A stretch of DNA of 64,000 bases from Escherichia coli (GTDB lineage: Bacteria; Pseudomonadota; Gammaproteobacteria; Enterobacterales; Enterobacteriaceae): NCBI RefSeq assembly GCF_024223415.1, contig NZ_CP100500.1; one strand, 5' to 3'. Of this stretch, positions 28,858 through 52,839 are shown piece by piece. Below the pieces are notes generated by a model that was not told where the DNA came from, made no database searches, and worked only from the letters and a program-made list of their open reading frames with translations. How positions within the stretch are numbered: position 1 is the stretch's first letter; each line of letters starts with the position of its first letter. A program made the position numbers and the translations under genes.

Positions 28858-29692
<835 letters not shown>

Positions 29693-33606: not shown

Positions 33607-33705
33607 GCCTGATGCGCTATGCTTATCAGGCCTACATAGTCCCTGCAATATATTGAATTAGCAAGGTTTTGTAGGCCGGATAAGGCGTTCACGCCGCATC
33701 CGGCA
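33607..33705. repeat. REP/BIME element downstream of torZ
   Basis: gcctgatgcgctatgcttatcaggcctac and gtaggccggataaggcgttcacgccgcatccggca. Confidence 0.65.
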
Positions 33706-42449: not shown

Positions 42450-43139
42450 CTAACCAAATCTGTTTATATTGAATGGTACTGATGAGATCACTTTAGACTG
42501 GATATAAAGCAGAGCTAACCCCTCTTTTTCGATGCTCCATGGTTGATAATTGGGGTTATCAGATAACACCATGATTTTGCTTCCAATTTTTTGAAGTCTT
42601 TTCACGTAGCATTCTCCATCAAAACAAAATGCATAAATGCCATCGCCATCAAAATAAGTTACTGTCTTATCAAGAAAAAGAAGGTCGCCAGGTGAGATTG
42701 TGGGAGCCATACTGTCTCCTCTGGCGTTACCTATTTCTATATTTTTGAATGCCCGATTTCCAACAAGGCGTCGGGCATATTCAGGATCAAGTTCTATTGA
42801 GCGCACTACATCTATCAAGTCACCACGGACATGAGTTCCATCACCGCAACTAAACTCAACATCAAGGACATTAAACACGACGCTATCTGTTCTTGTCTGG
42901 TGTTTCTCTTGCGAGGAAAAGGTTGGTGAGGAGTCTTCACCTAAGAACCAGGATTGTGGATAACCGCTAATCTCGGATAAATGCGCGAGCTTATCACTCC
43001 GTGGAAATGTTTTTCCTGTTGTCCAGTACTGCACTGATTGCGCACTCACACCTAACTTGCGGGCCAGTTGAGCCTGAGTCCATCCTTTTGCTTTCAGCAT
43101 CGCGGCTATTCGATTTTCCGTGTTTTTGACGTTCTTCAT
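42450..43139 (-). CDS. cI: CI-like prophage repressor: XRE HTH plus S24 (LexA-like) autopeptidase (229 aa)
   Basis: N-terminal HTH (KGWTQAQLARKLGVSAQSVQYWTTGKTFP). C-terminal GDSMAPT (Ser) and YVKRL (Lys) catalytic dyad. ATG at 43137-43139. Confidence 0.85.
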   Translation of the reverse strand: MKNVKNTENRIAAMLKAKGWTQAQLARKLGVSAQSVQYWTTGKTFPRSDKLAHLSEISGYPQSWFLGEDSSPTFSSQEKHQTRTDSVVFNVLDVEFSCGDGTHVRGDLIDVVRSIELDPEYARRLVGNRAFKNIEIGNARGDSMAPTISPGDLLFLDKTVTYFDGDGIYAFCFDGECYVKRLQKIGSKIMVLSDNPNYQPWSIEKEGLALLYIQSKVISSVPFNINRFG

Positions 43140-43272
43140 GACCAAATCCTGTGGGTTTCTTTACAAGGATAAATCTTTACTTGATTTTAGTGTATTCGAT
43201 CCTTTTGCAACTTGCATGTTAATTTAAACTTGATGTATTCTTGATTCATAAAGTTAATGTTGGTGCTTTGTT
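43140..43272. promoter_or_regulatory. Immunity switch region (divergent pRM/pR-type promoters and operators)
   Basis: 133-bp AT-rich gap between the divergent repressor and cro-like genes. Repeated (A)CTTGAT motifs at about 43180, 43229 and 43240. Palindrome TGCAAcTTGCA at 43206-43216. The CTTGAT motif recurs in the pL palindrome. Confidence 0.5.
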
Positions 43273-43648: not shown

Positions 43649-44494
43649 ATGATGATCAATAAACAAAAATTAGTCAACCCTGAAAACCTGCCAGTTATTG
43701 CTGGTGTAGAAATTTCAACTGATATGGTTGGGCGCTTTAATCTGAATGCATTGCATCGAGCCAGCGGTCTTGGCCCCAATAAAGCTCCGACGCAGTGGTT
43801 GCGTACTCAGTCAGCTAAACAACTTATTGAAGAGCTGGAAAAAGAAACTATGCAGAATTGCATAGTTTCACTGGAAGGGCGGAATGGCGGTACTTTTGCG
43901 CACGAACTGCTTGCTGTTGAATATGCAGGATGGATTTCTCCTGCGTTCCGGTTGCAGGTGAACCAGACTTTTATTGACTATCGTACTGGCAAACTTACAG
44001 CGGGCAATAATCAGTTGCCCAATTTTGACGATCCGATCGCTGCTGCTGAAGCGTGGATTGAAGCCAAAAAATCCGAACGCCTTGCTCTCGGGTATGCAGA
44101 GCGTCAGGCTCGCTACATCAGCAAACTCGAAAGCCATCTCGCCGATGGCATCACTCCTGTGCAGTTCTGCAAACAGCTCAACGGTGTAAACACTCGTCAG
44201 ATTAATGCGTTCCTTGAAGAGCGTAACTGGCTGTATGACGACCGTCCGGAGGCTATGTATCCGCGCTGGCGTGTAAAAGCGTATGCACGTGACCAATACC
44301 TGACTGAGCGTTCTGGGCAGGTTGAGCAGGAAAACGGGGAAATGCGCGAGATTTTCAAACCACTCCTGAAGAAAAAAGGTGCCGCCTGGTTATATCGCCA
44401 TTATCTGAACGGCGAACTACCGATGAAGAAAACATGGGATGGGCTGTTTACCCATAACACTGAGCTCGCGAATCTTTTACAGGAGAGCAAATGA
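43649..44494 (+). CDS. KilA-N domain / antirepressor (Ant/KilAC)-type protein (281 aa)
   Basis: N-terminal KilA-N-like region (RFNLNALHRASGLGPNKAPTQWLR...TFAHELLAVEYAGWISPAFRLQV). C-terminal antirepressor-like domain. Confidence 0.65.
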   Translation: MMINKQKLVNPENLPVIAGVEISTDMVGRFNLNALHRASGLGPNKAPTQWLRTQSAKQLIEELEKETMQNCIVSLEGRNGGTFAHELLAVEYAGWISPAFRLQVNQTFIDYRTGKLTAGNNQLPNFDDPIAAAEAWIEAKKSERLALGYAERQARYISKLESHLADGITPVQFCKQLNGVNTRQINAFLEERNWLYDDRPEAMYPRWRVKAYARDQYLTERSGQVEQENGEMREIFKPLLKKKGAAWLYRHYLNGELPMKKTWDGLFTHNTELANLLQESK

Positions 44495-44703
44495 TGCAAA
44501 CCAAGACATGTGTAACTGGTGATGTCGATCTGAAACCTTGCCCGTTCTGCGGAAATCCGGAAGTACAACTCATTGAGGTGAAATATTTTCTGGATGGCGA
44601 TGATGGTTATTACGTCGCATGTACTTGCTGTAACGCAAACCAGATTCCTGATTCGAAAGAACGTGCTGTTCATGACTGGAACCAGCGCGAAAACGCGGAT
44701 TGA
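44491..44703 (+). CDS. lar: Lar-family restriction alleviation protein (70 aa)
   Basis: KPCPFCG...CTCC zinc-ribbon pattern typical of Lar-family proteins. ATGA overlap with the upstream gene. Confidence 0.6.
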   Translation: MMQTKTCVTGDVDLKPCPFCGNPEVQLIEVKYFLDGDDGYYVACTCCNANQIPDSKERAVHDWNQRENAD

Positions 44704-44797
44704 CGGCGAGTAGGTACAAAATGATCCGCAACCAACATATTGATTCTGCAATTTCGGGACGTTACACTGTTCCAGCACCTTATAAAGCGGGTGCCGG

Positions 44798-45006
44798 GAT
44801 TGGAACCCCGGAATTGCATACGGCGATATACGACGCGCCAGCGTCTTTTTTATCGTCCGCGCTCACGCACGCCAGAATTATGGTGGGCTGGGCAGGGGAG
44901 CCGAAAGGCTCGCCGGTTTCCGTATGCGCCGGTAGTTCCAACCCTGTCCAGTTCACCACCAGTGAGATTGGAACCTCCGGTGGTGGAAGTTATCCATTGC
45001 ATACGG
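44798..45006 (+). ncRNA. Candidate structured cis-regulatory RNA / triple-repeat element between lar and rha
   Basis: Three copies of GRTTGGAAC..CCGG..GCATACGG: 44798-44823 direct, 44920-44943 inverted, 44966-45006 direct. A 16-bp helix pairs 44882-44897 with 44942-44957, and its 3 non-Watson-Crick pairs are all G-U on the + strand. A GAGCC-GAAA-GGCTC tetraloop hairpin lies at 44898-44911. A terminator-like hairpin plus T6 lies at 44832-44851. Confidence 0.4.
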
Positions 45007-45017
45007 AGGCTGCCATC

Positions 45018-45380
45018 ATGGCTACAGTCCCAACTTCCCCATACCTGAAAATCGAAGTCGTCAACGGCAAGGCCGTTATTTTCTCCCTGCATGTTGCCTG
45101 CCATTTCAAGCGCATGCACCAGAACATCGTCGACAAAATCGAGTATCTGAACTGCTCGCGCGAATTTTTTACCCGCAATTTCATACCGGGTACTTATCAC
45201 ATCTATGGTGACTCCCTGCGTGGTTATTACATCACCCTTGATGGTCTGATGATGCTTCAGCTTGGGTTAAGTCTACGCACAATGCGGTACTACGAGAGCT
45301 GCATTGAAGCATTCCAGGAGGCAGGGAACAGCCTGAATCTTACCGCTTTCCGCCGTAATCAGTGGGAGGCGCGTCCATGA
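45018..45380 (+). CDS. rha: Rha-family phage regulatory protein (120 aa)
   Basis: A GGAGG RBS precedes the ATG at 45018. KAVIFSLHVACHFKRMHQNIVDKIEYL...YYITLDGLMMLQLGL...IEAFQE fits the Rha domain pattern. The longer TTG-initiated ORF (44700) adds a non-protein-like GC-rich N-terminus. Confidence 0.6.
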   Translation: MATVPTSPYLKIEVVNGKAVIFSLHVACHFKRMHQNIVDKIEYLNCSREFFTRNFIPGTYHIYGDSLRGYYITLDGLMMLQLGLSLRTMRYYESCIEAFQEAGNSLNLTAFRRNQWEARP

Positions 45381-45571: not shown

Positions 45572-45792
45572 TCCGCCACATCGTTAATTTCCGGTATCAC
45601 CGATACAACCATTGCCCCCGTGTGGGGCAGTGGTTCACCACCAGCAACGGCCACGTTCTGCGGGTTTGCCTGGTCAATACAGAAAGCCAGAAGGTTGTCT
45701 GCCAGGTTCAGGGACGTACTCATACCCTGAGTTATCCACTGGCAGTGTTTCAGTCCGGAAAAATGTTTAAACGCCTGGGAGGTGCCGTGTGA
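45568..45792 (+). CDS. Hypothetical phage protein (74 aa)
   Basis: ORF track. ATGA coupling on both sides. Confidence 0.5.
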   Translation: MIRHIVNFRYHRYNHCPRVGQWFTTSNGHVLRVCLVNTESQKVVCQVQGRTHTLSYPLAVFQSGKMFKRLGGAV

Positions 45793-46781
45793 GTCGTTAC
45801 GCACCTACACCGGAAGTTATGGCTATTGGTCAAATTAATATTTCCGGCAATGTCACCCCCGCGAACTGGTGGAAACATATTCGGCTACCCAGTGGTCGTC
45901 CGGATGCGACTGCTATCGCCTTGCTTTCAGAAATTGTTTACTGGTACCGCCCGACAGAACTCCGGGATGAGCATACCGGGGCTTTGCTGGGATATCGCAA
46001 GCGTTTTCAGGGTGACAAACTGCAAAGAAGCTATCAGGCGTTTGCTGAGCAATTTGGCTTCGGGAAAAGGGAAACCGCAGATGCGCTGAAGCGTCTTCGC
46101 GATGCAGGGTTTATTACTCTGGATTTACGCACCGTAGAAATGCTCGATGGTGTGAAATGCAGCAATATTTTGTTTGTCGGGATCAACCCACAGGCAGTTG
46201 CTGCCATTACCACACCTTCTTCTGTTTCGCCAGAAAGTAACAGCAATAACGCAATCAGCGACACAGCTATTACGTTAAAACGGAACACCCCCCAACGTCA
46301 TAACGGAACAGGGGATACGCCGAATGTTGATACAAATACAGAGATTACTACAGAGATTACAACGGAGACTAAAAACACTATTGGCGCATCCGCTGACGCG
46401 TCTGCACCAGCGCGTTCCGCCCGACAGGAATATTCACCGGAATTTGAACAGGTCTGGCAGGAATATCCCAAACGTGCTGGTGGCAATTCCAAGTCAGCAG
46501 CCTTCAAAGCCTGGAAAGCCCGTCTCAGGGAGGGAATAAAACCGGAGACCATGCTTGATGGTGTGAGACGTTATGCCGCCTGGGTACGTGCTACAGGAAA
46601 TACCGGCACACAGTTCGTGAAGCAGGCGTCGACGTTCTTTGGCCCCGATCGGCACTTTGACGAATCCTGGCAACAGCCAGCCGCTCCCGGAGGTGGGCGA
46701 CAGCGACAGGTCGATGTCCTGGCTGGCCTGGGAGCCATGTCTGACAAATTCGGTAAATCCAGTGACAAATTGACATTCTGA
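45789..46781 (+). CDS. Replication initiation / replisome-organiser protein (O-like, 330 aa)
   Basis: Lies immediately upstream of the helicase loader and helicase. Winged-helix-like N-terminal half. TEITTEITTE linker encoded by short tandem DNA repeats. Confidence 0.6.
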   Translation: MSRYAPTPEVMAIGQINISGNVTPANWWKHIRLPSGRPDATAIALLSEIVYWYRPTELRDEHTGALLGYRKRFQGDKLQRSYQAFAEQFGFGKRETADALKRLRDAGFITLDLRTVEMLDGVKCSNILFVGINPQAVAAITTPSSVSPESNSNNAISDTAITLKRNTPQRHNGTGDTPNVDTNTEITTEITTETKNTIGASADASAPARSARQEYSPEFEQVWQEYPKRAGGNSKSAAFKAWKARLREGIKPETMLDGVRRYAAWVRATGNTGTQFVKQASTFFGPDRHFDESWQQPAAPGGGRQRQVDVLAGLGAMSDKFGKSSDKLTF

Positions 46782-46791
46782 GGTGACAGCG

Positions 46792-47670
46792 ATGATGACA
46801 CTTAACCTGCGTGAACAACAAACAAGACTACAGGCGCGGATGGATGAGTTACGGGCAGAGATTGCATTTGCTCAGAATGGCGAAAAGCCATGGCCTTATC
46901 GATCCTGCTGGATGCGTGAAGGGCGCGGGTGTTGCGAAAAACATGGCGAATACCACACACATATTCTGGTGTGGAGCGATCGTAATGGCGAGGATAGAGA
47001 AAAAATTTCATGCTGCCCTGACTGCTTGATAGCTGAGGCCAACGATTTGACCATGGAGCTGTCGTCCCTCAAGGCGGAAGAACTGACTGATAACGCCGGA
47101 ATTGCTCTGCGTTTTCGGGACTGCGAGTTTGATAATTATCTGGAGGTTAATCCTGACGCAGCCAGAAATCTTGCGGCCTGTCGCCGCTATGCGGAGAACT
47201 GGCCAGATATGCTGGAGAACGGTACCAGTCTTGTTATGACCGGCAGTTGCGGTACCGGGAAAAATCATCTGGCGGTATCAATGGCAAAACACATCATCCG
47301 TAACTATCTGGCCAGTGTGGAGATCACCGACGTGATGCGCCTTACCCGTGCTGTGAAAAACTGCTGGCGGAATGACAGTGAAAAAACAGCGGATGACGTC
47401 ATTGAGCATTATGCGTCACTGGATTTGCTGATCATCGACGAAGTCGGCGTTCAGTTTGGCAGTGCGGCTAAAATGGCCATTTTGCAGGAAATTATCAATG
47501 CCCGGTATGAGGGTATTTTGCCAACTATCTTGATCAGCAACCTTTCACCGGAAGAATTGTGGGCGTTCATCAGTCCCCGGATTGCCGACAGGATCACCGA
47601 TGGCGGGCGCAACTGGTTGTCGTTTAACTGGCCCAGCTACCGTTCTCGTATCGGAGGTGTTGCCGCATGA
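46792..47670 (+). CDS. DnaC/IstB-like AAA+ helicase loader
   Basis: Walker A (GSCGTGKNHL) and Walker B (LLIIDEVG). GAGG RBS before the ATG at 46792. The ORF-track GTG is at 46783. Confidence 0.8.
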   Translation: MMTLNLREQQTRLQARMDELRAEIAFAQNGEKPWPYRSCWMREGRGCCEKHGEYHTHILVWSDRNGEDREKISCCPDCLIAEANDLTMELSSLKAEELTDNAGIALRFRDCEFDNYLEVNPDAARNLAACRRYAENWPDMLENGTSLVMTGSCGTGKNHLAVSMAKHIIRNYLASVEITDVMRLTRAVKNCWRNDSEKTADDVIEHYASLDLLIIDEVGVQFGSAAKMAILQEIINARYEGILPTILISNLSPEELWAFISPRIADRITDGGRNWLSFNWPSYRSRIGGVAA

Positions 47671-52685: not shown

Positions 52686-52761
52686 GGCCCTTTAGCTCAG
52701 TGGTGAGAGCGAGCGACTCATAATCGCAAGGGCGCTGGTTCAAATTCAGCAAGGGCCACCA
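52686..52761 (+). tRNA. tRNA with CAU anticodon (Ile2/Met type, the ileZ-like tRNA of lambdoid phages), CCA encoded
   Basis: Full cloverleaf: GGCCCTT/AAGGGCC acceptor, GCTC/GAGC D-stem, CTCATAA anticodon loop, GCTGG-TTCAAAT-TCAGC T-arm, ACCA 3' end. Confidence 0.85.
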
Positions 52762-52762
52762 A

Positions 52763-52839
52763 CCGCTACTAGCTCATCAGGAAAGAGCGTCAACCCTTTA
52801 AGTTGAGTGCGCTAGGTTCGATTCCCCGCTGGCGGTCCA
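52763..52839 (+). tRNA. Aberrant tRNA-like sequence (UUU in the anticodon position, C at position 33, weak T-stem); probable pseudo-tRNA
   Basis: Acceptor pairs 6 of 7. Good D-arm (GCTC/GAGC). Anticodon stem TCAAC/GTTGA with loop CCTTTAA. T-stem CTAGG/CCCCG has 2 mismatches. CCA is encoded. Confidence 0.4.

What the first reader, a model, noticed from the sequence alone, without database searches (positions are those of the whole stretch)
44798..45006. GC-rich triple-repeat element with + strand-specific G-U helix between lar and rha: candidate structured regulatory RNA
Seen, in five parts.

(1) A bipartite motif occurs three times. GATTGGAACC-CCGG-AATT-GCATACGG lies at 44798-44823. Its inverted form CCGTATGC-G-CCGG-TA-GTTCCAACC lies at 44920-44943. 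GATTGGAACCTCCGG-(15 nt)-ATTGCATACGG lies at 44966-45006. The central copy can therefore pair, in nested antiparallel fashion (TTGGAAC:GTTCCAA and GCATACGG:CCGTATGC), with either the upstream or the downstream copy. The two pairings are mutually exclusive.

(2) GGTGGGCTGGGCAGGG (44882-44897) pairs with CCCTGTCCAGTTCACC (44942-44957) over 16 bp. All three non-Watson-Crick positions are G-U on the + strand, and they would be C-A on the other strand.

(3) That helix encloses a GAGCC-GAAA-GGCTC hairpin (GNRA tetraloop, 44898-44911). It also encloses a second hairpin, GCCGG...CCGGT, whose loop presents CCGUAUGC.

(4) A GACGC-GCCA-GCGTC stem plus T6 (44832-44851) lies between repeat 1 and the core.

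(5) The only way to call this stretch coding is a TTG-initiated 105-aa Gly/Ser/Ala/Pro/Thr-rich extension of Rha. A GGAGG RBS and an ATG (45018) sit immediately after the element, where a normal-length Rha domain protein begins.

Inference: this is a cis-acting RNA switch controlling read-through into rha and the replication genes. It could be an attenuator or riboregulator, or a factor-independent antitermination RNA in the spirit of the HK022 put elements, which would fit the absence of an N homologue. Alternative readings are a trans-acting sRNA or a set of DNA binding sites (iterons) for a phage protein. I do not recognise it as any named RNA family.
Basis: seen in the sequence. Interest (0 to 1): 0.75.

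Follow-up and report, generated by a model that had tools for sequence, protein, structure and literature searches.

The report
Known phage C4/CI antisense RNA switch
The repeat-rich GC stretch is a real structured regulatory RNA, but it is a well-known one: the antisense-RNA immunity module of phages P1, P7 and P4 and Salmonella Gifsy-1 (IsrK leader plus C4/CI RNA and its target sites), which public annotation mislabels as an "Ash family protein".

Summary
The bipartite motif occurs three times (0.01 expected by chance). The 16-17 bp G-U helix, both inner hairpins, the terminator and the SD/ATG are where stated.

The element is not unknown. Rfam places C4 antisense RNA (RF01695, 84.3 bits, cut-off 45) at 44876-44963. 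It places isrK (RF01394, 63.6 bits, cut-off 50) at 44775-44851.

The layout matches the annotated P1 immI region and the P4 immunity region: promoter, leader with a1/b1 and a terminator, C4 with b'/a', then a2/b2 over the ribosome-binding site.

In about 50 homologous loci the C4 helices covary (97% paired; 13 of 27 pairs change on both sides). The two recognition elements co-vary with both target sets (13 x 10 specificity types).

The likely mechanism is inferred from P1, P4 and Gifsy-1. C4 is cut out of the read-through transcript and pairs with a2/b2. This blocks translation of the Rha-like gene and is polar on the downstream replication genes. The IsrK leader competes for C4.

The "Ash" reading frame shows no protein-level constraint. 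Pfam PF10554 is in effect a translation of this RNA.

Verdict: already known, low interest, useful mainly as an annotation correction.

The parts
44740..44768 (+). Candidate sigma-70 promoter of the module (P-isrK): -35 TTGATT at 44740-44745, 17-nt spacer, -10 TACACT at 44763-44768. The inferred start is about 44775.
   Evidence: Read from the sequence. Both hexamers are invariant in 21 distinct homologous loci, while the sequence just upstream of the -35 diverges. Other subclasses have TTGCTT/TATAGT or TTGACC/TACTCT at the same place. The match is 8 of 12 to consensus, so it fell below the threshold of the generic scan. The isrK model starts 7 nt after the -10.
44775..44851 (+). IsrK / P4-seqA-type leader RNA. 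It has a 5' hairpin, a hairpin showing a1 in its loop, a single-stranded b1 and an intrinsic terminator.
   Evidence: Rfam RF01394 isrK, 63.6 bits (cut-off 50), full model 1-77. The fold is shown.
44800..44806 (+). a1 target site (UUGGAAC), complementary to a' of C4.
   Evidence: Named after the P1 GenBank annotation, where a is the 5' element.
44816..44823 (+). b1 target site (GCAUACGG), complementary to the b' loop of C4.
44832..44851 (+). Intrinsic terminator of the short IsrK transcript (GACGC-GCCA-GCGUC plus U6). Read-through gives the C4 precursor and the mRNA.
   Evidence: Terminator scan. It is the 3' end of the isrK model. Read-through was shown experimentally for the Gifsy-1 homologue (PMC4825925).
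44876..44963 (+). C4/CI-type antisense RNA gene (Rfam model span). The predicted mature RNA is about 44882-44960: a 17-bp outer stem, two inner hairpins and an ACC(A) 3' tail.
   Evidence: RF01695, 84.3 bits (cut-off 45), E = 3.7e-16. MFE -48.5 kcal/mol, z = -6.3. The mature ends are inferred by alignment with the annotated 77-nt P1 C4, which runs AU|GGUGGG...CCACC.
44898..44911 (+). Inner hairpin 1 of C4 (GAGCC-GAAA-GGCUC).
   Evidence: Four of its 5 pairs show changes on both sides among homologues.
44912..44933 (+). Inner hairpin 2 of C4. Its loop carries b' (CCGUAUGC, 44920-44927).
   Evidence: The loop sequence co-varies with b1 and b2 across loci.
44935..44941 (+). a' recognition element (GUUCCAA) in the single-stranded joint 3' of hairpin 2.
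   Evidence: It co-varies with a1 and a2.
44968..44974 (+). a2 target site (UUGGAAC) in the mRNA leader of the Rha-like gene.
   Evidence: It sits 34 nt after hairpin 2, exactly as in P4.
44999..45007 (+). b2 target site (GCAUACGGA). It overlaps the Shine-Dalgarno GGAGG at 45005-45009.
   Evidence: In all but one of the 50 homologous loci the downstream loop target (7-10 nt) lies at the conserved position next to the SD, and in nearly all it ends in GGA of the SD. Same geometry as P1 b2/icd and P4 seqC.
45018..45380 (+). Rha-like regulator gene (120 aa), the first gene under C4 control. It is followed by two small ORFs, a replication initiator (45789-46781) and a DnaC-like loader (46783-47670).
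   Evidence: It shows a coding-type substitution pattern, with third positions 1.7 times more variable.
44880..45017 (+). orf45-like leader frame. It starts at the AUG at the 5' edge of C4 and is here fused in frame, with no stop, to the Rha-like gene.
   Evidence: Read from the sequence. The homologous orf45 of Gifsy-1 is translated and is needed for expression of the downstream gene (PMC4825925). There are no stop positions in this frame in 27 distinct sequences, against 7 and 7 in the other two frames. There is no amino-acid-level constraint.
44721..45380 (+). Span that RefSeq/PGAP calls a single 'ash family protein' in near-identical E. coli prophages. The N-terminal ~100 codons are the translated IsrK-C4 module.
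   Evidence: CDS 2522-3184 of L001.

Best explanation
This is an antisense-RNA immunity/regulatory module of the P1/P7 C4, P4 CI and Gifsy-1 IsrK-STnc1160 type. It sits in the early rightward operon of a lambdoid E. coli prophage, between lar and a Rha-like gene.

Proposed mechanism:
1. A conserved promoter (44740-44768) starts transcription near 44775.
2. Most transcripts stop at the intrinsic terminator (44832-44851). This gives a ~77-nt IsrK/seqA-like RNA that carries the sites a1 and b1.
3. Read-through transcripts contain the C4 precursor. By homology with P1, RNase P cuts between U44881 and G44882. The mature ~79-nt RNA ends in ACC(A) near 44960.
4. The hairpin loop b' and the single strand a' of C4 pair with b2 and a2 in the leader of the Rha-like gene. 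The b2 duplex covers the Shine-Dalgarno sequence, so translation is blocked.
5. As in P1 and P4, the untranslated message is then terminated prematurely. This also keeps the downstream replication genes off.
6. The upstream a1/b1 copy is a competing partner. In cis it locks the unprocessed transcript into an inactive fold. In trans the short IsrK RNA titrates the C4 sequence and switches expression on.

Shown here: family membership, structure, covariation, co-variation of antisense and targets, overlap of b2 with the SD, and absence of protein-level constraint.
Inferred from homologues: processing, trans action, Rho-dependent polarity and the IsrK anti-antisense role.
For: - Rfam C4 scores 84.3 bits and isrK 63.6 bits, both full length and above their curated cut-offs. 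No other copy occurs in the 64-kb window.
- The order and spacing of parts match the annotated P1 region: a1, b1, c4, a2, b2, then icd 10 nt after b2.
- They also match P4. There C4 and isrK hits lie in the immunity region. a2 and b2 lie at +34 and +65, as here. The GGAGGCTGCCATCATGGCTACA start context is identical.
- On 31 distinct homologues, 97.4% of cells are paired, against 84% in shuffles and 31-51% when the partners are slid. Thirteen of 27 pairs change on both sides.
- In 50 loci there are 13 b' loops and 10 a' elements in 22 combinations. A locus's own targets match over at least 7 nt in 78-98% of cases. Targets of loci with a different element do so in 0.3-2.3%.
- The fold is strand-specific. 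The full leader's MFE pairs a1/b1 with b'/a' in cis. This matches 'structure A' of the Gifsy-1 study (PMC4825925).
- That study also shows terminator read-through, a processed ~80-nt RNA (STnc1160) and activation by IsrK in trans.
- The role of P1 C4 as repressor of icd/ant is stated in PMC8198154 and PMC8546580.
Against: - No expression, processing or repression data exist for this prophage.
- The candidate promoter matches consensus at only 8 of 12 positions.
- The published Gifsy-1 model stresses activation by IsrK and translational coupling through orf45, not C4-mediated repression. The relative weight of the two modes here is therefore open.
- The prophage repressor has an S24 self-cleavage domain, so an antirepressor circuit is not obviously needed.
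- The Rha-like protein's function is unknown.
- The homologues were collected with a pattern that fixes hairpin 2. That helix therefore carries no evidence, and the sample is biased towards P4-like and enterobacterial relatives.
Confidence: 0.9

Rival explanations
1. The stretch encodes a genuine protein domain: the N-terminal 'Ash' domain of a 220-aa Ash/Rha protein, as RefSeq annotates it. On this reading the repeats and helices are incidental.
For: - An ORF runs from 44700/44721 into the Rha-like gene.
- PF10554 matches its translation (55.2 bits, cut-off 26), as do several PHROG 'transcriptional regulator' families.
- PGAP calls it 'ash family protein' in roughly 1,000 E. coli genomes.
- A 2022 paper treats Rha/Ash as a two-domain protein (PMC8951638).
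- The frame is free of stop codons in 47 of 51 loci, and in 27 of 27 distinct sequences of the C4 part.
Against: - There is no third-position excess in that frame: 0.207/0.196/0.127 for the leader and 0.186/0.159/0.164 for C4. The adjacent Rha CDS of the same loci gives 0.133/0.136/0.233.
- Substitutions instead occur as compensatory pairs in RNA helices and in step with distant target sites.
- Four loci have a 1-nt deletion between the SD and the ATG. This puts the upstream frame out of phase, yet the downstream ORF stays intact.
- P1 and three other lineages have in-frame stops.
- In P4, the PF10554 match falls on the obsolete 'cI 137 aa' ORF, which lies over the CI RNA. It does not fall on the epsilon protein, which is PF25738.
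- The PF10554 score in the window comes from the translated C4 segment alone (43.5 bits).
Confidence: 0.04
2. It is a purely cis-acting transcription attenuator or a put-like factor-independent antitermination RNA. The nascent transcript chooses between repeat 1:centre and centre:repeat 3 pairings, with no diffusible RNA product.
For: - The two pairings are mutually exclusive, and a terminator lies between repeat 1 and the core.
- The full-leader MFE does pair a1/b1 with b'/a' in cis.
- The Gifsy-1 work describes alternative cis conformations A and B.
Against: - The core is a member of the C4 family. Its archetypes act in trans as processed ~77-nt RNAs (P1 annotation; PMC8546580).
- A processed ~80-nt species is seen for the Gifsy-1 homologue.
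- The terminator lies upstream of the core. Neither pairing of the core can form before the terminator has been transcribed, so the core cannot act as a classical anti-terminator.
- The downstream target overlaps the SD, not a terminator.
- The many specificity types, reshuffled between loci, are what is expected of a diffusible immunity determinant.
- No Rfam family other than C4, isrK and c4-a1b1 matches.
Confidence: 0.05
3. The three repeat copies are DNA binding sites (iterons or operators) for a phage protein.
For: There are three copies of a bipartite motif, one of them inverted, close to replication genes.
Against: - The G-U pairs work on one strand only, and the fold is far better on the + strand.
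- Helices covary so as to preserve RNA pairing.
- The inverted copy always sits in the loop and joint of a conserved RNA structure.
- The motif sequence itself is free to change, provided complementarity is kept (13 x 10 types). A shared DNA-binding protein would not tolerate this.
Confidence: 0.01

Closest known systems
Satellite phage P4 immunity region: seqA, CI RNA (seqB), seqC, then kil/eta
   Same: Both Rfam C4 and isrK models hit the P4 region (74.9 and 60.8 bits). The geometry is identical: a2 at +34 and b2 at +65 after hairpin 2. The SD-to-ATG context GGAGGCTGCCATCATGGCTACA is also identical. In both, the module lies upstream of replication genes. In both, the public protein annotation lies over the RNA ('cI 137 aa' in P4, 'ash family protein' here).
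   Different: The recognition sequences differ (P4: UUCACAGG / GUGAGAA; here: GCAUACGG / UUGGAAC). P4 has about 85 nt more between the isrK/seqA part and C4. The first downstream gene is a 120-aa Rha-like regulator rather than P4 kil. The host element is a lambdoid prophage with a CI/Cro switch, not a satellite.
Salmonella Gifsy-1 isrK-orf45(STnc1160)-anrP-isrJ locus (PMC4825925)
   Same: The isrK family match is shared. So are the IsrK terminator with read-through, the AUG at the 5' edge of the C4 sequence that opens orf45, and the pairing of the middle of IsrK with the 3' part of orf45 (= a1/b1 with b'/a'). A regulator or antirepressor-type gene lies immediately downstream.
   Different: In Gifsy-1 orf45 ends at an AUGA overlap with anrP. 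Here the frame runs on into the Rha-like gene without a stop, an arrangement the paper notes for Shigella dysenteriae. This fused arrangement is the commonest in my sample (43 of 51 loci). The published model is IsrK-driven activation. It mentions the P4 CI parallel only as a possibility.
Phage P1/P7 immI operon: a1, b1, c4, a2, b2, icd, ant1/2
   Same: The order of parts is the same. C4 has the same three-helix fold. b' is in the hairpin loop and a' is in the 3' joint. b2 lies 10-11 nt before the first start codon. A terminator-like hairpin with a U-run follows b1. The mature 5' end falls in AU|GGUGGG.
   Different: P1's promoter carries a C1 operator (Oc4). The downstream genes are icd and the Ant1/Ant2 antirepressor. 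P1 has an in-frame stop inside the b' loop, so there is no orf45-type frame. Sequence identity is low outside the conserved core.
Pfam PF10554 Phage_ASH / RefSeq 'ash family protein'
   Same: The translation of 44700-45017 matches at 55.2 bits. Near-identical E. coli loci carry this label.
   Different: There is no protein-type substitution pattern. The family's P4 member is the ORF lying over the CI RNA, not epsilon. The label describes a translated RNA gene, not a demonstrated protein domain.

Membership tests
C4 antisense RNA (Rfam RF01695; P1/P7 C4, P4 CI) | Covariance-model score above the curated gathering threshold over the full model | tested here: met
   84.3 bits against 45, model positions 1-87 of 87, E = 3.7e-16.
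C4 antisense RNA (Rfam RF01695; P1/P7 C4, P4 CI) | A long outer stem enclosing two hairpins, supported by compensatory changes | tested here: met
   The MFE equals the model structure. On 31 homologues, 97.4% of cells are paired and 13 of 27 pairs change on both sides. Slid controls give 31-51% paired. Hairpin 2 was fixed by the search pattern and carries no information.
C4 antisense RNA (Rfam RF01695; P1/P7 C4, P4 CI) | Two recognition elements (b' in a loop, a' single-stranded), each complementary to one site upstream and one downstream on the same transcript | tested here: met
   Shown in the window. Across 50 loci the elements co-vary with both target sets: own targets match in 78-98% of cases, non-own in 0.3-2.3%.
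C4 antisense RNA (Rfam RF01695; P1/P7 C4, P4 CI) | The downstream b2 site overlaps the ribosome-binding site of the first regulated ORF | tested here: met
   b2 at 44999-45007 overlaps GGAGG at 45005-45009, and the ATG is at 45018. The same holds in P1 and P4 and in nearly all of the 50 loci.
C4 antisense RNA (Rfam RF01695; P1/P7 C4, P4 CI) | Excised from a longer precursor (by RNase P in P1) to a ~77-nt RNA that acts in trans | not testable with these tools
   Only homology is available: AU|GGUGGG at the 5' end and an ACC(A) tail after the outer stem, as in the annotated P1 C4. A processed ~80-nt species was seen for the Gifsy-1 homologue.
C4 antisense RNA (Rfam RF01695; P1/P7 C4, P4 CI) | Represses translation, and through polarity transcription, of the downstream genes; acts as an immunity determinant | not testable with these tools
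   Inferred from P1 (PMC8198154; PMC8546580) and from P4 as summarised in PMC4825925.
isrK / P4 seqA leader RNA (Rfam RF01394) | Covariance-model score above the gathering threshold | tested here: met
   63.6 bits against 50, model positions 1-77 of 77.
isrK / P4 seqA leader RNA (Rfam RF01394) | Own promoter, a hairpin displaying a1, b1, and an intrinsic terminator that allows partial read-through | tested here: inconclusive
   The hairpins and terminator are present. The promoter hexamers are conserved in position across subclasses but match consensus only weakly. Read-through cannot be tested here.
isrK / P4 seqA leader RNA (Rfam RF01394) | Hfq binding and trans-activation of the downstream gene | not testable with these tools
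   Known only for Gifsy-1.
c4-a1b1 motif (Rfam RF03163) | Covariance-model score above the gathering threshold | tested here: not met
   22 bits against 46.7 at 44762-44814. The P4 site scores 44.1, also just below the threshold. The overlapping isrK model covers the same sites.
Pfam PF10554 Phage_ASH (protein domain) | HMM score above the gathering threshold | tested here: met
   55.2 bits against 26 for the translation of 44700-45017. The C4 segment alone gives 43.5 bits.
Pfam PF10554 Phage_ASH (protein domain) | Evolves as a protein, with purifying selection on amino acids and third-position excess | tested here: not met
   Per-position diversity is 0.207/0.196/0.127 and 0.186/0.159/0.164, against 0.133/0.136/0.233 in the adjacent CDS. 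Frame-breaking 1-nt deletions occur with the downstream ORF intact.
HK022 put-type antitermination RNA | A cis-acting nascent RNA of two stem-loops that modifies RNA polymerase, with no antisense targets and no processed product | tested here: not met
   The architecture is that of the C4 family, with co-varying antisense and target sites. Action on RNA polymerase itself cannot be tested here.

The most novel reading that the evidence does not exclude
The C4 gene is dual-use. The AUG at its 5' edge (44880) opens a leader frame that selection keeps open and that is here fused in phase to the Rha-like gene. Unprocessed transcripts could therefore be translated through the C4 sequence and the a2/b2 sites. 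That would yield an N-terminally extended Rha isoform, or at least drive translational coupling. RNase P cleavage inside that AUG (AU|G) would destroy the start codon and release the repressor RNA instead. Processing and translation would then be mutually exclusive fates of one transcript.
Probability: 0.2. Interest if true: 0.4.

Novelty: already known. Interest (0 to 1): 0.15.

Why it matters
As biology it adds little. The C4/CI antisense immunity module has been known since about 1990 for P1/P7 and P4. It is in Rfam, and a close homologue (Gifsy-1 IsrK) has been dissected experimentally.

The practical value is in annotation:
- In roughly 1,000 complete E. coli genomes the module is not annotated as RNA. 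It is instead merged with the downstream gene as an 'ash family protein'.
- Pfam PF10554 and several PHROG families contain its translation.
- Published work has taken the 'Ash domain' for a protein domain of unknown function in Stx-phage Rha proteins.
- PF10554 has also been used as a marker for the P4 epsilon protein.

Recognising the RNA explains that 'domain'. It also identifies a second, RNA-based control layer in front of the replication genes of these prophages, Stx phages included.

Tried and rejected
- tRNA-like reading of the minus strand. GGTTCCAATC resembles a T-loop, but ARAGORN finds no tRNA or tmRNA there and the minus strand folds poorly.
- Protein-coding reading. Tested by stop-codon census, codon-position diversity and frame-breaking indels. 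It is rejected as a constrained protein, although the frame is kept open.
- Generic promoter scan. It did not report the candidate promoter. I relied on conservation across loci instead.
- The original P1 papers (PMC312442, PMC196329) are not held in the library. P1 facts therefore rest on the GenBank annotation, secondary papers and my own knowledge.
- About half of the 120 pattern hits in viral contigs were chance matches. They were filtered out by their flanks. L021 was a false positive and L060 is truncated downstream.
- Failed calls for formal reasons only.
Full report
**Observation.**
- The bipartite motif TTGGAAC-N-GCATACGG occurs at 44800-44823 and 44968-45006 on the + strand, and inverted at 44920-44941. 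That is three matches where 0.01 are expected from dinucleotide-preserving shuffles of the 64-kb window.
- The 16-bp helix 44882-44897 / 44942-44957 has three G-U pairs. It encloses the GAAA hairpin (44898-44911) and the GCCGG/CCGGU hairpin (44912-44933).
- RNAfold returns exactly this structure for the + strand: -48.5 kcal/mol, z = -6.3, none of 200 shuffles as stable. The complementary strand reaches only -32.2 kcal/mol, z = -2.1.
- The terminator at 44832-44851 is found by the pattern scan.
- The ORF 44700-45380, GGAGG at 45005-45009 and ATG at 45018 are as stated.

**Identity.** A scan against Rfam gives two matches above the curated thresholds.
- C4 antisense RNA (RF01695) lies at 44876-44963: 84.3 bits, cut-off 45, E = 3.7e-16, full model.
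- isrK (RF01394) lies at 44775-44851: 63.6 bits, cut-off 50, full model.
- The c4-a1b1 motif gives a sub-threshold match at 44762-44814.

'Repeat 1 plus terminator' is the IsrK leader. 'Repeat 3' is the downstream target.

The GenBank record of phage P1 annotates the same parts in the same order. It lists promoters P1c4/P2c4, a1, b1, the 77-nt C4 RNA, a2 and b2, with icd starting 10 nt after b2. The P1 sequence shows b' in the loop of hairpin 2 and a' in the joint 3' of it. It also shows a terminator-like hairpin with a U-run after b1.

Phage P4 is closer still.
- Its immunity region gives C4 (74.9 bits) and isrK (60.8 bits) hits.
- Its a2 and b2 sites lie at +34 and +65 after hairpin 2, exactly as in the window.
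- They are followed by the same GGAGGCTGCCATCATGGCTACA.

Using the P1 nomenclature, the window sites are:

| Site | Coordinates |
|---|---|
| a1 | 44800-44806 |
| b1 | 44816-44823 |
| b' | 44920-44927 |
| a' | 44935-44941 |
| a2 | 44968-44974 |
| b2 | 44999-45007 |

b2 overlaps the SD.

**Comparative evidence.** A pattern scan of viral contigs for hairpin 2 returned 120 loci, of which about 55 are genuine homologues.
- On 31 distinct C4 sequences aligned to the Rfam structure, 97.4% of cells form standard pairs. Column shuffles give 84.0%, and sliding the partners gives 31-51%. Thirteen of 27 pairs show changes on both sides, including 4 of the 5 pairs of hairpin 1. Hairpin 2 was fixed by the search pattern and is uninformative.
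- The two recognition elements vary a great deal: 13 different b' loops and 10 a' elements, in 22 combinations. In each locus the upstream and downstream targets change with them at fixed positions. A locus's own targets are complementary over at least 7 nt in 78-98% of cases. Targets of loci with a different element reach this in 0.3-2.3%.
- In all but one locus the downstream loop target lies at the conserved position next to the Shine-Dalgarno sequence, and in nearly all it ends in the GGA of that sequence.
- This is the signature of an antisense RNA with specificity types, that is, heteroimmunity. It excludes a DNA-iteron reading.
- A promoter-like pair of hexamers sits at a constant distance before the isrK hairpin in every subclass. 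Homology between loci begins just upstream of it.

**Coding or not.** This needed care.
- RefSeq annotates the near-identical locus in E. coli STEC309 as one 'ash family protein' running from the ATG equivalent to 44721 to the end of the Rha-like gene.
- Pfam PF10554 (Phage_ASH) matches the translation of 44700-45017 at 55.2 bits.
- PHROG 'transcriptional regulator' families also contain this segment.
- A 2022 paper on Stx phages speaks of Rha/Ash two-domain proteins with an Ash domain of unknown function.

Against a real domain:
- (i) In that frame, nucleotide diversity by codon position is 0.207/0.196/0.127 over the leader and 0.186/0.159/0.164 over C4. There is no third-position excess. The adjacent Rha CDS of the same loci gives 0.133/0.136/0.233.
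- (ii) Four loci carry a 1-nt deletion between the SD and the ATG. This puts the upstream frame out of phase while the downstream ORF stays intact. Several lineages, and P1, have in-frame stops.
- (iii) In P4, PF10554 matches the obsolete 'cI gene product (137 aa)' ORF, which lies over the CI RNA. The real epsilon protein is PF25738.
- (iv) The PF10554 score in the window comes from the translated C4 segment alone (43.5 bits).

PF10554 is therefore in effect a translation of the C4/CI RNA gene.

One nuance remains. In 27 distinct sequences of the segment from the AUG at 44880 to the ATG at 45018, 94 of 141 columns vary. This frame has no stop codon at any position. The other two frames have 7 polymorphic stop positions each. 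If stop-creating changes fell evenly among frames, the chance would be about (2/3)^14 = 0.003. This is my own estimate, and it ignores the relatedness of the sequences.

This fits the Gifsy-1 study. There the homologous 'orf45' starts at the same AUG and is translated. It is needed, through coupling, for expression of the downstream anrP, while its amino-acid sequence is not conserved (PMC4825925). In the window the frame is fused to the Rha-like gene without a stop. The paper notes this arrangement for Shigella dysenteriae, and it is the commonest in my sample (43 of 51 loci).

**Mechanism.** The following steps are inferred from homologues unless marked otherwise.
1. Transcription starts near 44775. 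Most transcripts end at the terminator and give the short IsrK RNA.
2. Read-through gives the C4 precursor. Read-through and a processed ~80-nt species were shown for Gifsy-1.
3. By alignment with the annotated P1 C4, the mature RNA would start at G44882. The cut falls inside the AUG (AU|G). The RNA would end in ACC(A) at about 44960. From my own knowledge of the P1 literature, the cut is made by RNase P, which recognises the stem plus the CCA-like tail.
4. C4 pairs with a2/b2 and covers the SD of the Rha-like gene. The complementarity and the overlap are shown here.
5. In P1 this blocks icd translation and hence ant expression. In P4 the CI RNA causes premature termination before the replication genes (summary).
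6. The genes downstream here are the Rha-like regulator, two small ORFs, a replication initiator and a DnaC-like loader. The likely outcome is therefore that these are kept silent.
7. The a1/b1 copy competes for C4. The MFE of the whole leader pairs a1/b1 with b'/a' in cis. This corresponds to the translationally inactive 'structure A' of the Gifsy-1 work. Short IsrK supplied in trans activates expression there.

**Verdict.** It is wrong on novelty and partly wrong on mode, because this is a processed trans-acting antisense RNA and not a put-like or purely cis switch. The element is a typical member of a family that is in Rfam and has three experimentally studied representatives. About 1,000 of 5,426 complete E. 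coli genomes carry a close copy. Novelty: already known. Interest is low. The useful by-product is the annotation point that the 'Ash family/domain' equals the translated C4/CI RNA.

Noticed in passing
window 44700-45017; L124 (P4) 8168-8584 minus strand: Pfam PF10554 'Phage_ASH' matches translations of the C4/CI RNA gene. In P4 it hits the obsolete 'cI 137 aa' ORF that lies over the CI RNA. The real P4 epsilon protein is PF25738. One published study used PF10554 as a marker for epsilon (PMC8628076). Another calls it an 'Ash domain' of Rha proteins in Stx phages (PMC8951638). PHROG families 995, 821 and 3960 contain the same translated segment.
   Followed up: partly
window 44880-45017 and homologous loci: The frame that opens at the AUG on the 5' edge of C4 has no stop codon in 27 distinct sequences, although 94 of 141 columns vary. 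The other two frames have 7 polymorphic stop positions each. There is still no amino-acid-type constraint. The predicted RNase P cut falls inside that AUG.
   Followed up: partly
L032 (IMGVR_UViG_2671181028_000005), 9739-9760 and 11051-11072, minus strand: Two complete C4 modules lie 1.3 kb apart on one contig, with different specificities: b' UUGAUCG with a' CUGCGAA, and the window's type, b' GUAUGCG with a' GUUCCAA. E. coli genomes carry up to 6 copies of the region.
   Followed up: no
L020, L043, L081, L094 (upstream b1 sites): In some loci the upstream b1 site is not perfectly complementary to the loop although b2 is. An example is GCTCGAGG against the expected GCTCAAGG, which gives a G-U pair. 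The decoy site may be tuned to be weaker than the regulatory site, or these loci may be recombinants.
   Followed up: no
window 44747-44758 and 44807-44818: A 12-nt inverted repeat (TGCAATTTCGGG / CCCGGAATTGCA, 92% complementary) links the spacer of the candidate promoter to the stretch between a1 and b1. It would be transcribed only in read-through from the upstream operon. The spacer sequence is conserved among homologues.
   Followed up: no
window 29385-29692 (+), 15316-15393 (-), 33628-33670 (-): Rfam finds the chromosomal sRNAs MicL (373.7 bits), C0465 and ES036. The left half of the window is therefore E. coli-type chromosome and the prophage lies to the right of it.
   Followed up: no
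window 52686-52839 (+): Two adjacent tRNA genes lie inside the prophage: tRNA-Met (CAT) and tRNA-Lys (TTT). The second scores only 31.2 bits in Rfam.
   Followed up: no
window 43649-44494 (+): A KilA-N plus ANT/KilAC antirepressor-type protein is encoded just upstream, between cro and lar. It lies outside C4 control. The prophage repressor (42450-43145, minus strand) has an S24 self-cleavage domain.
   Followed up: no
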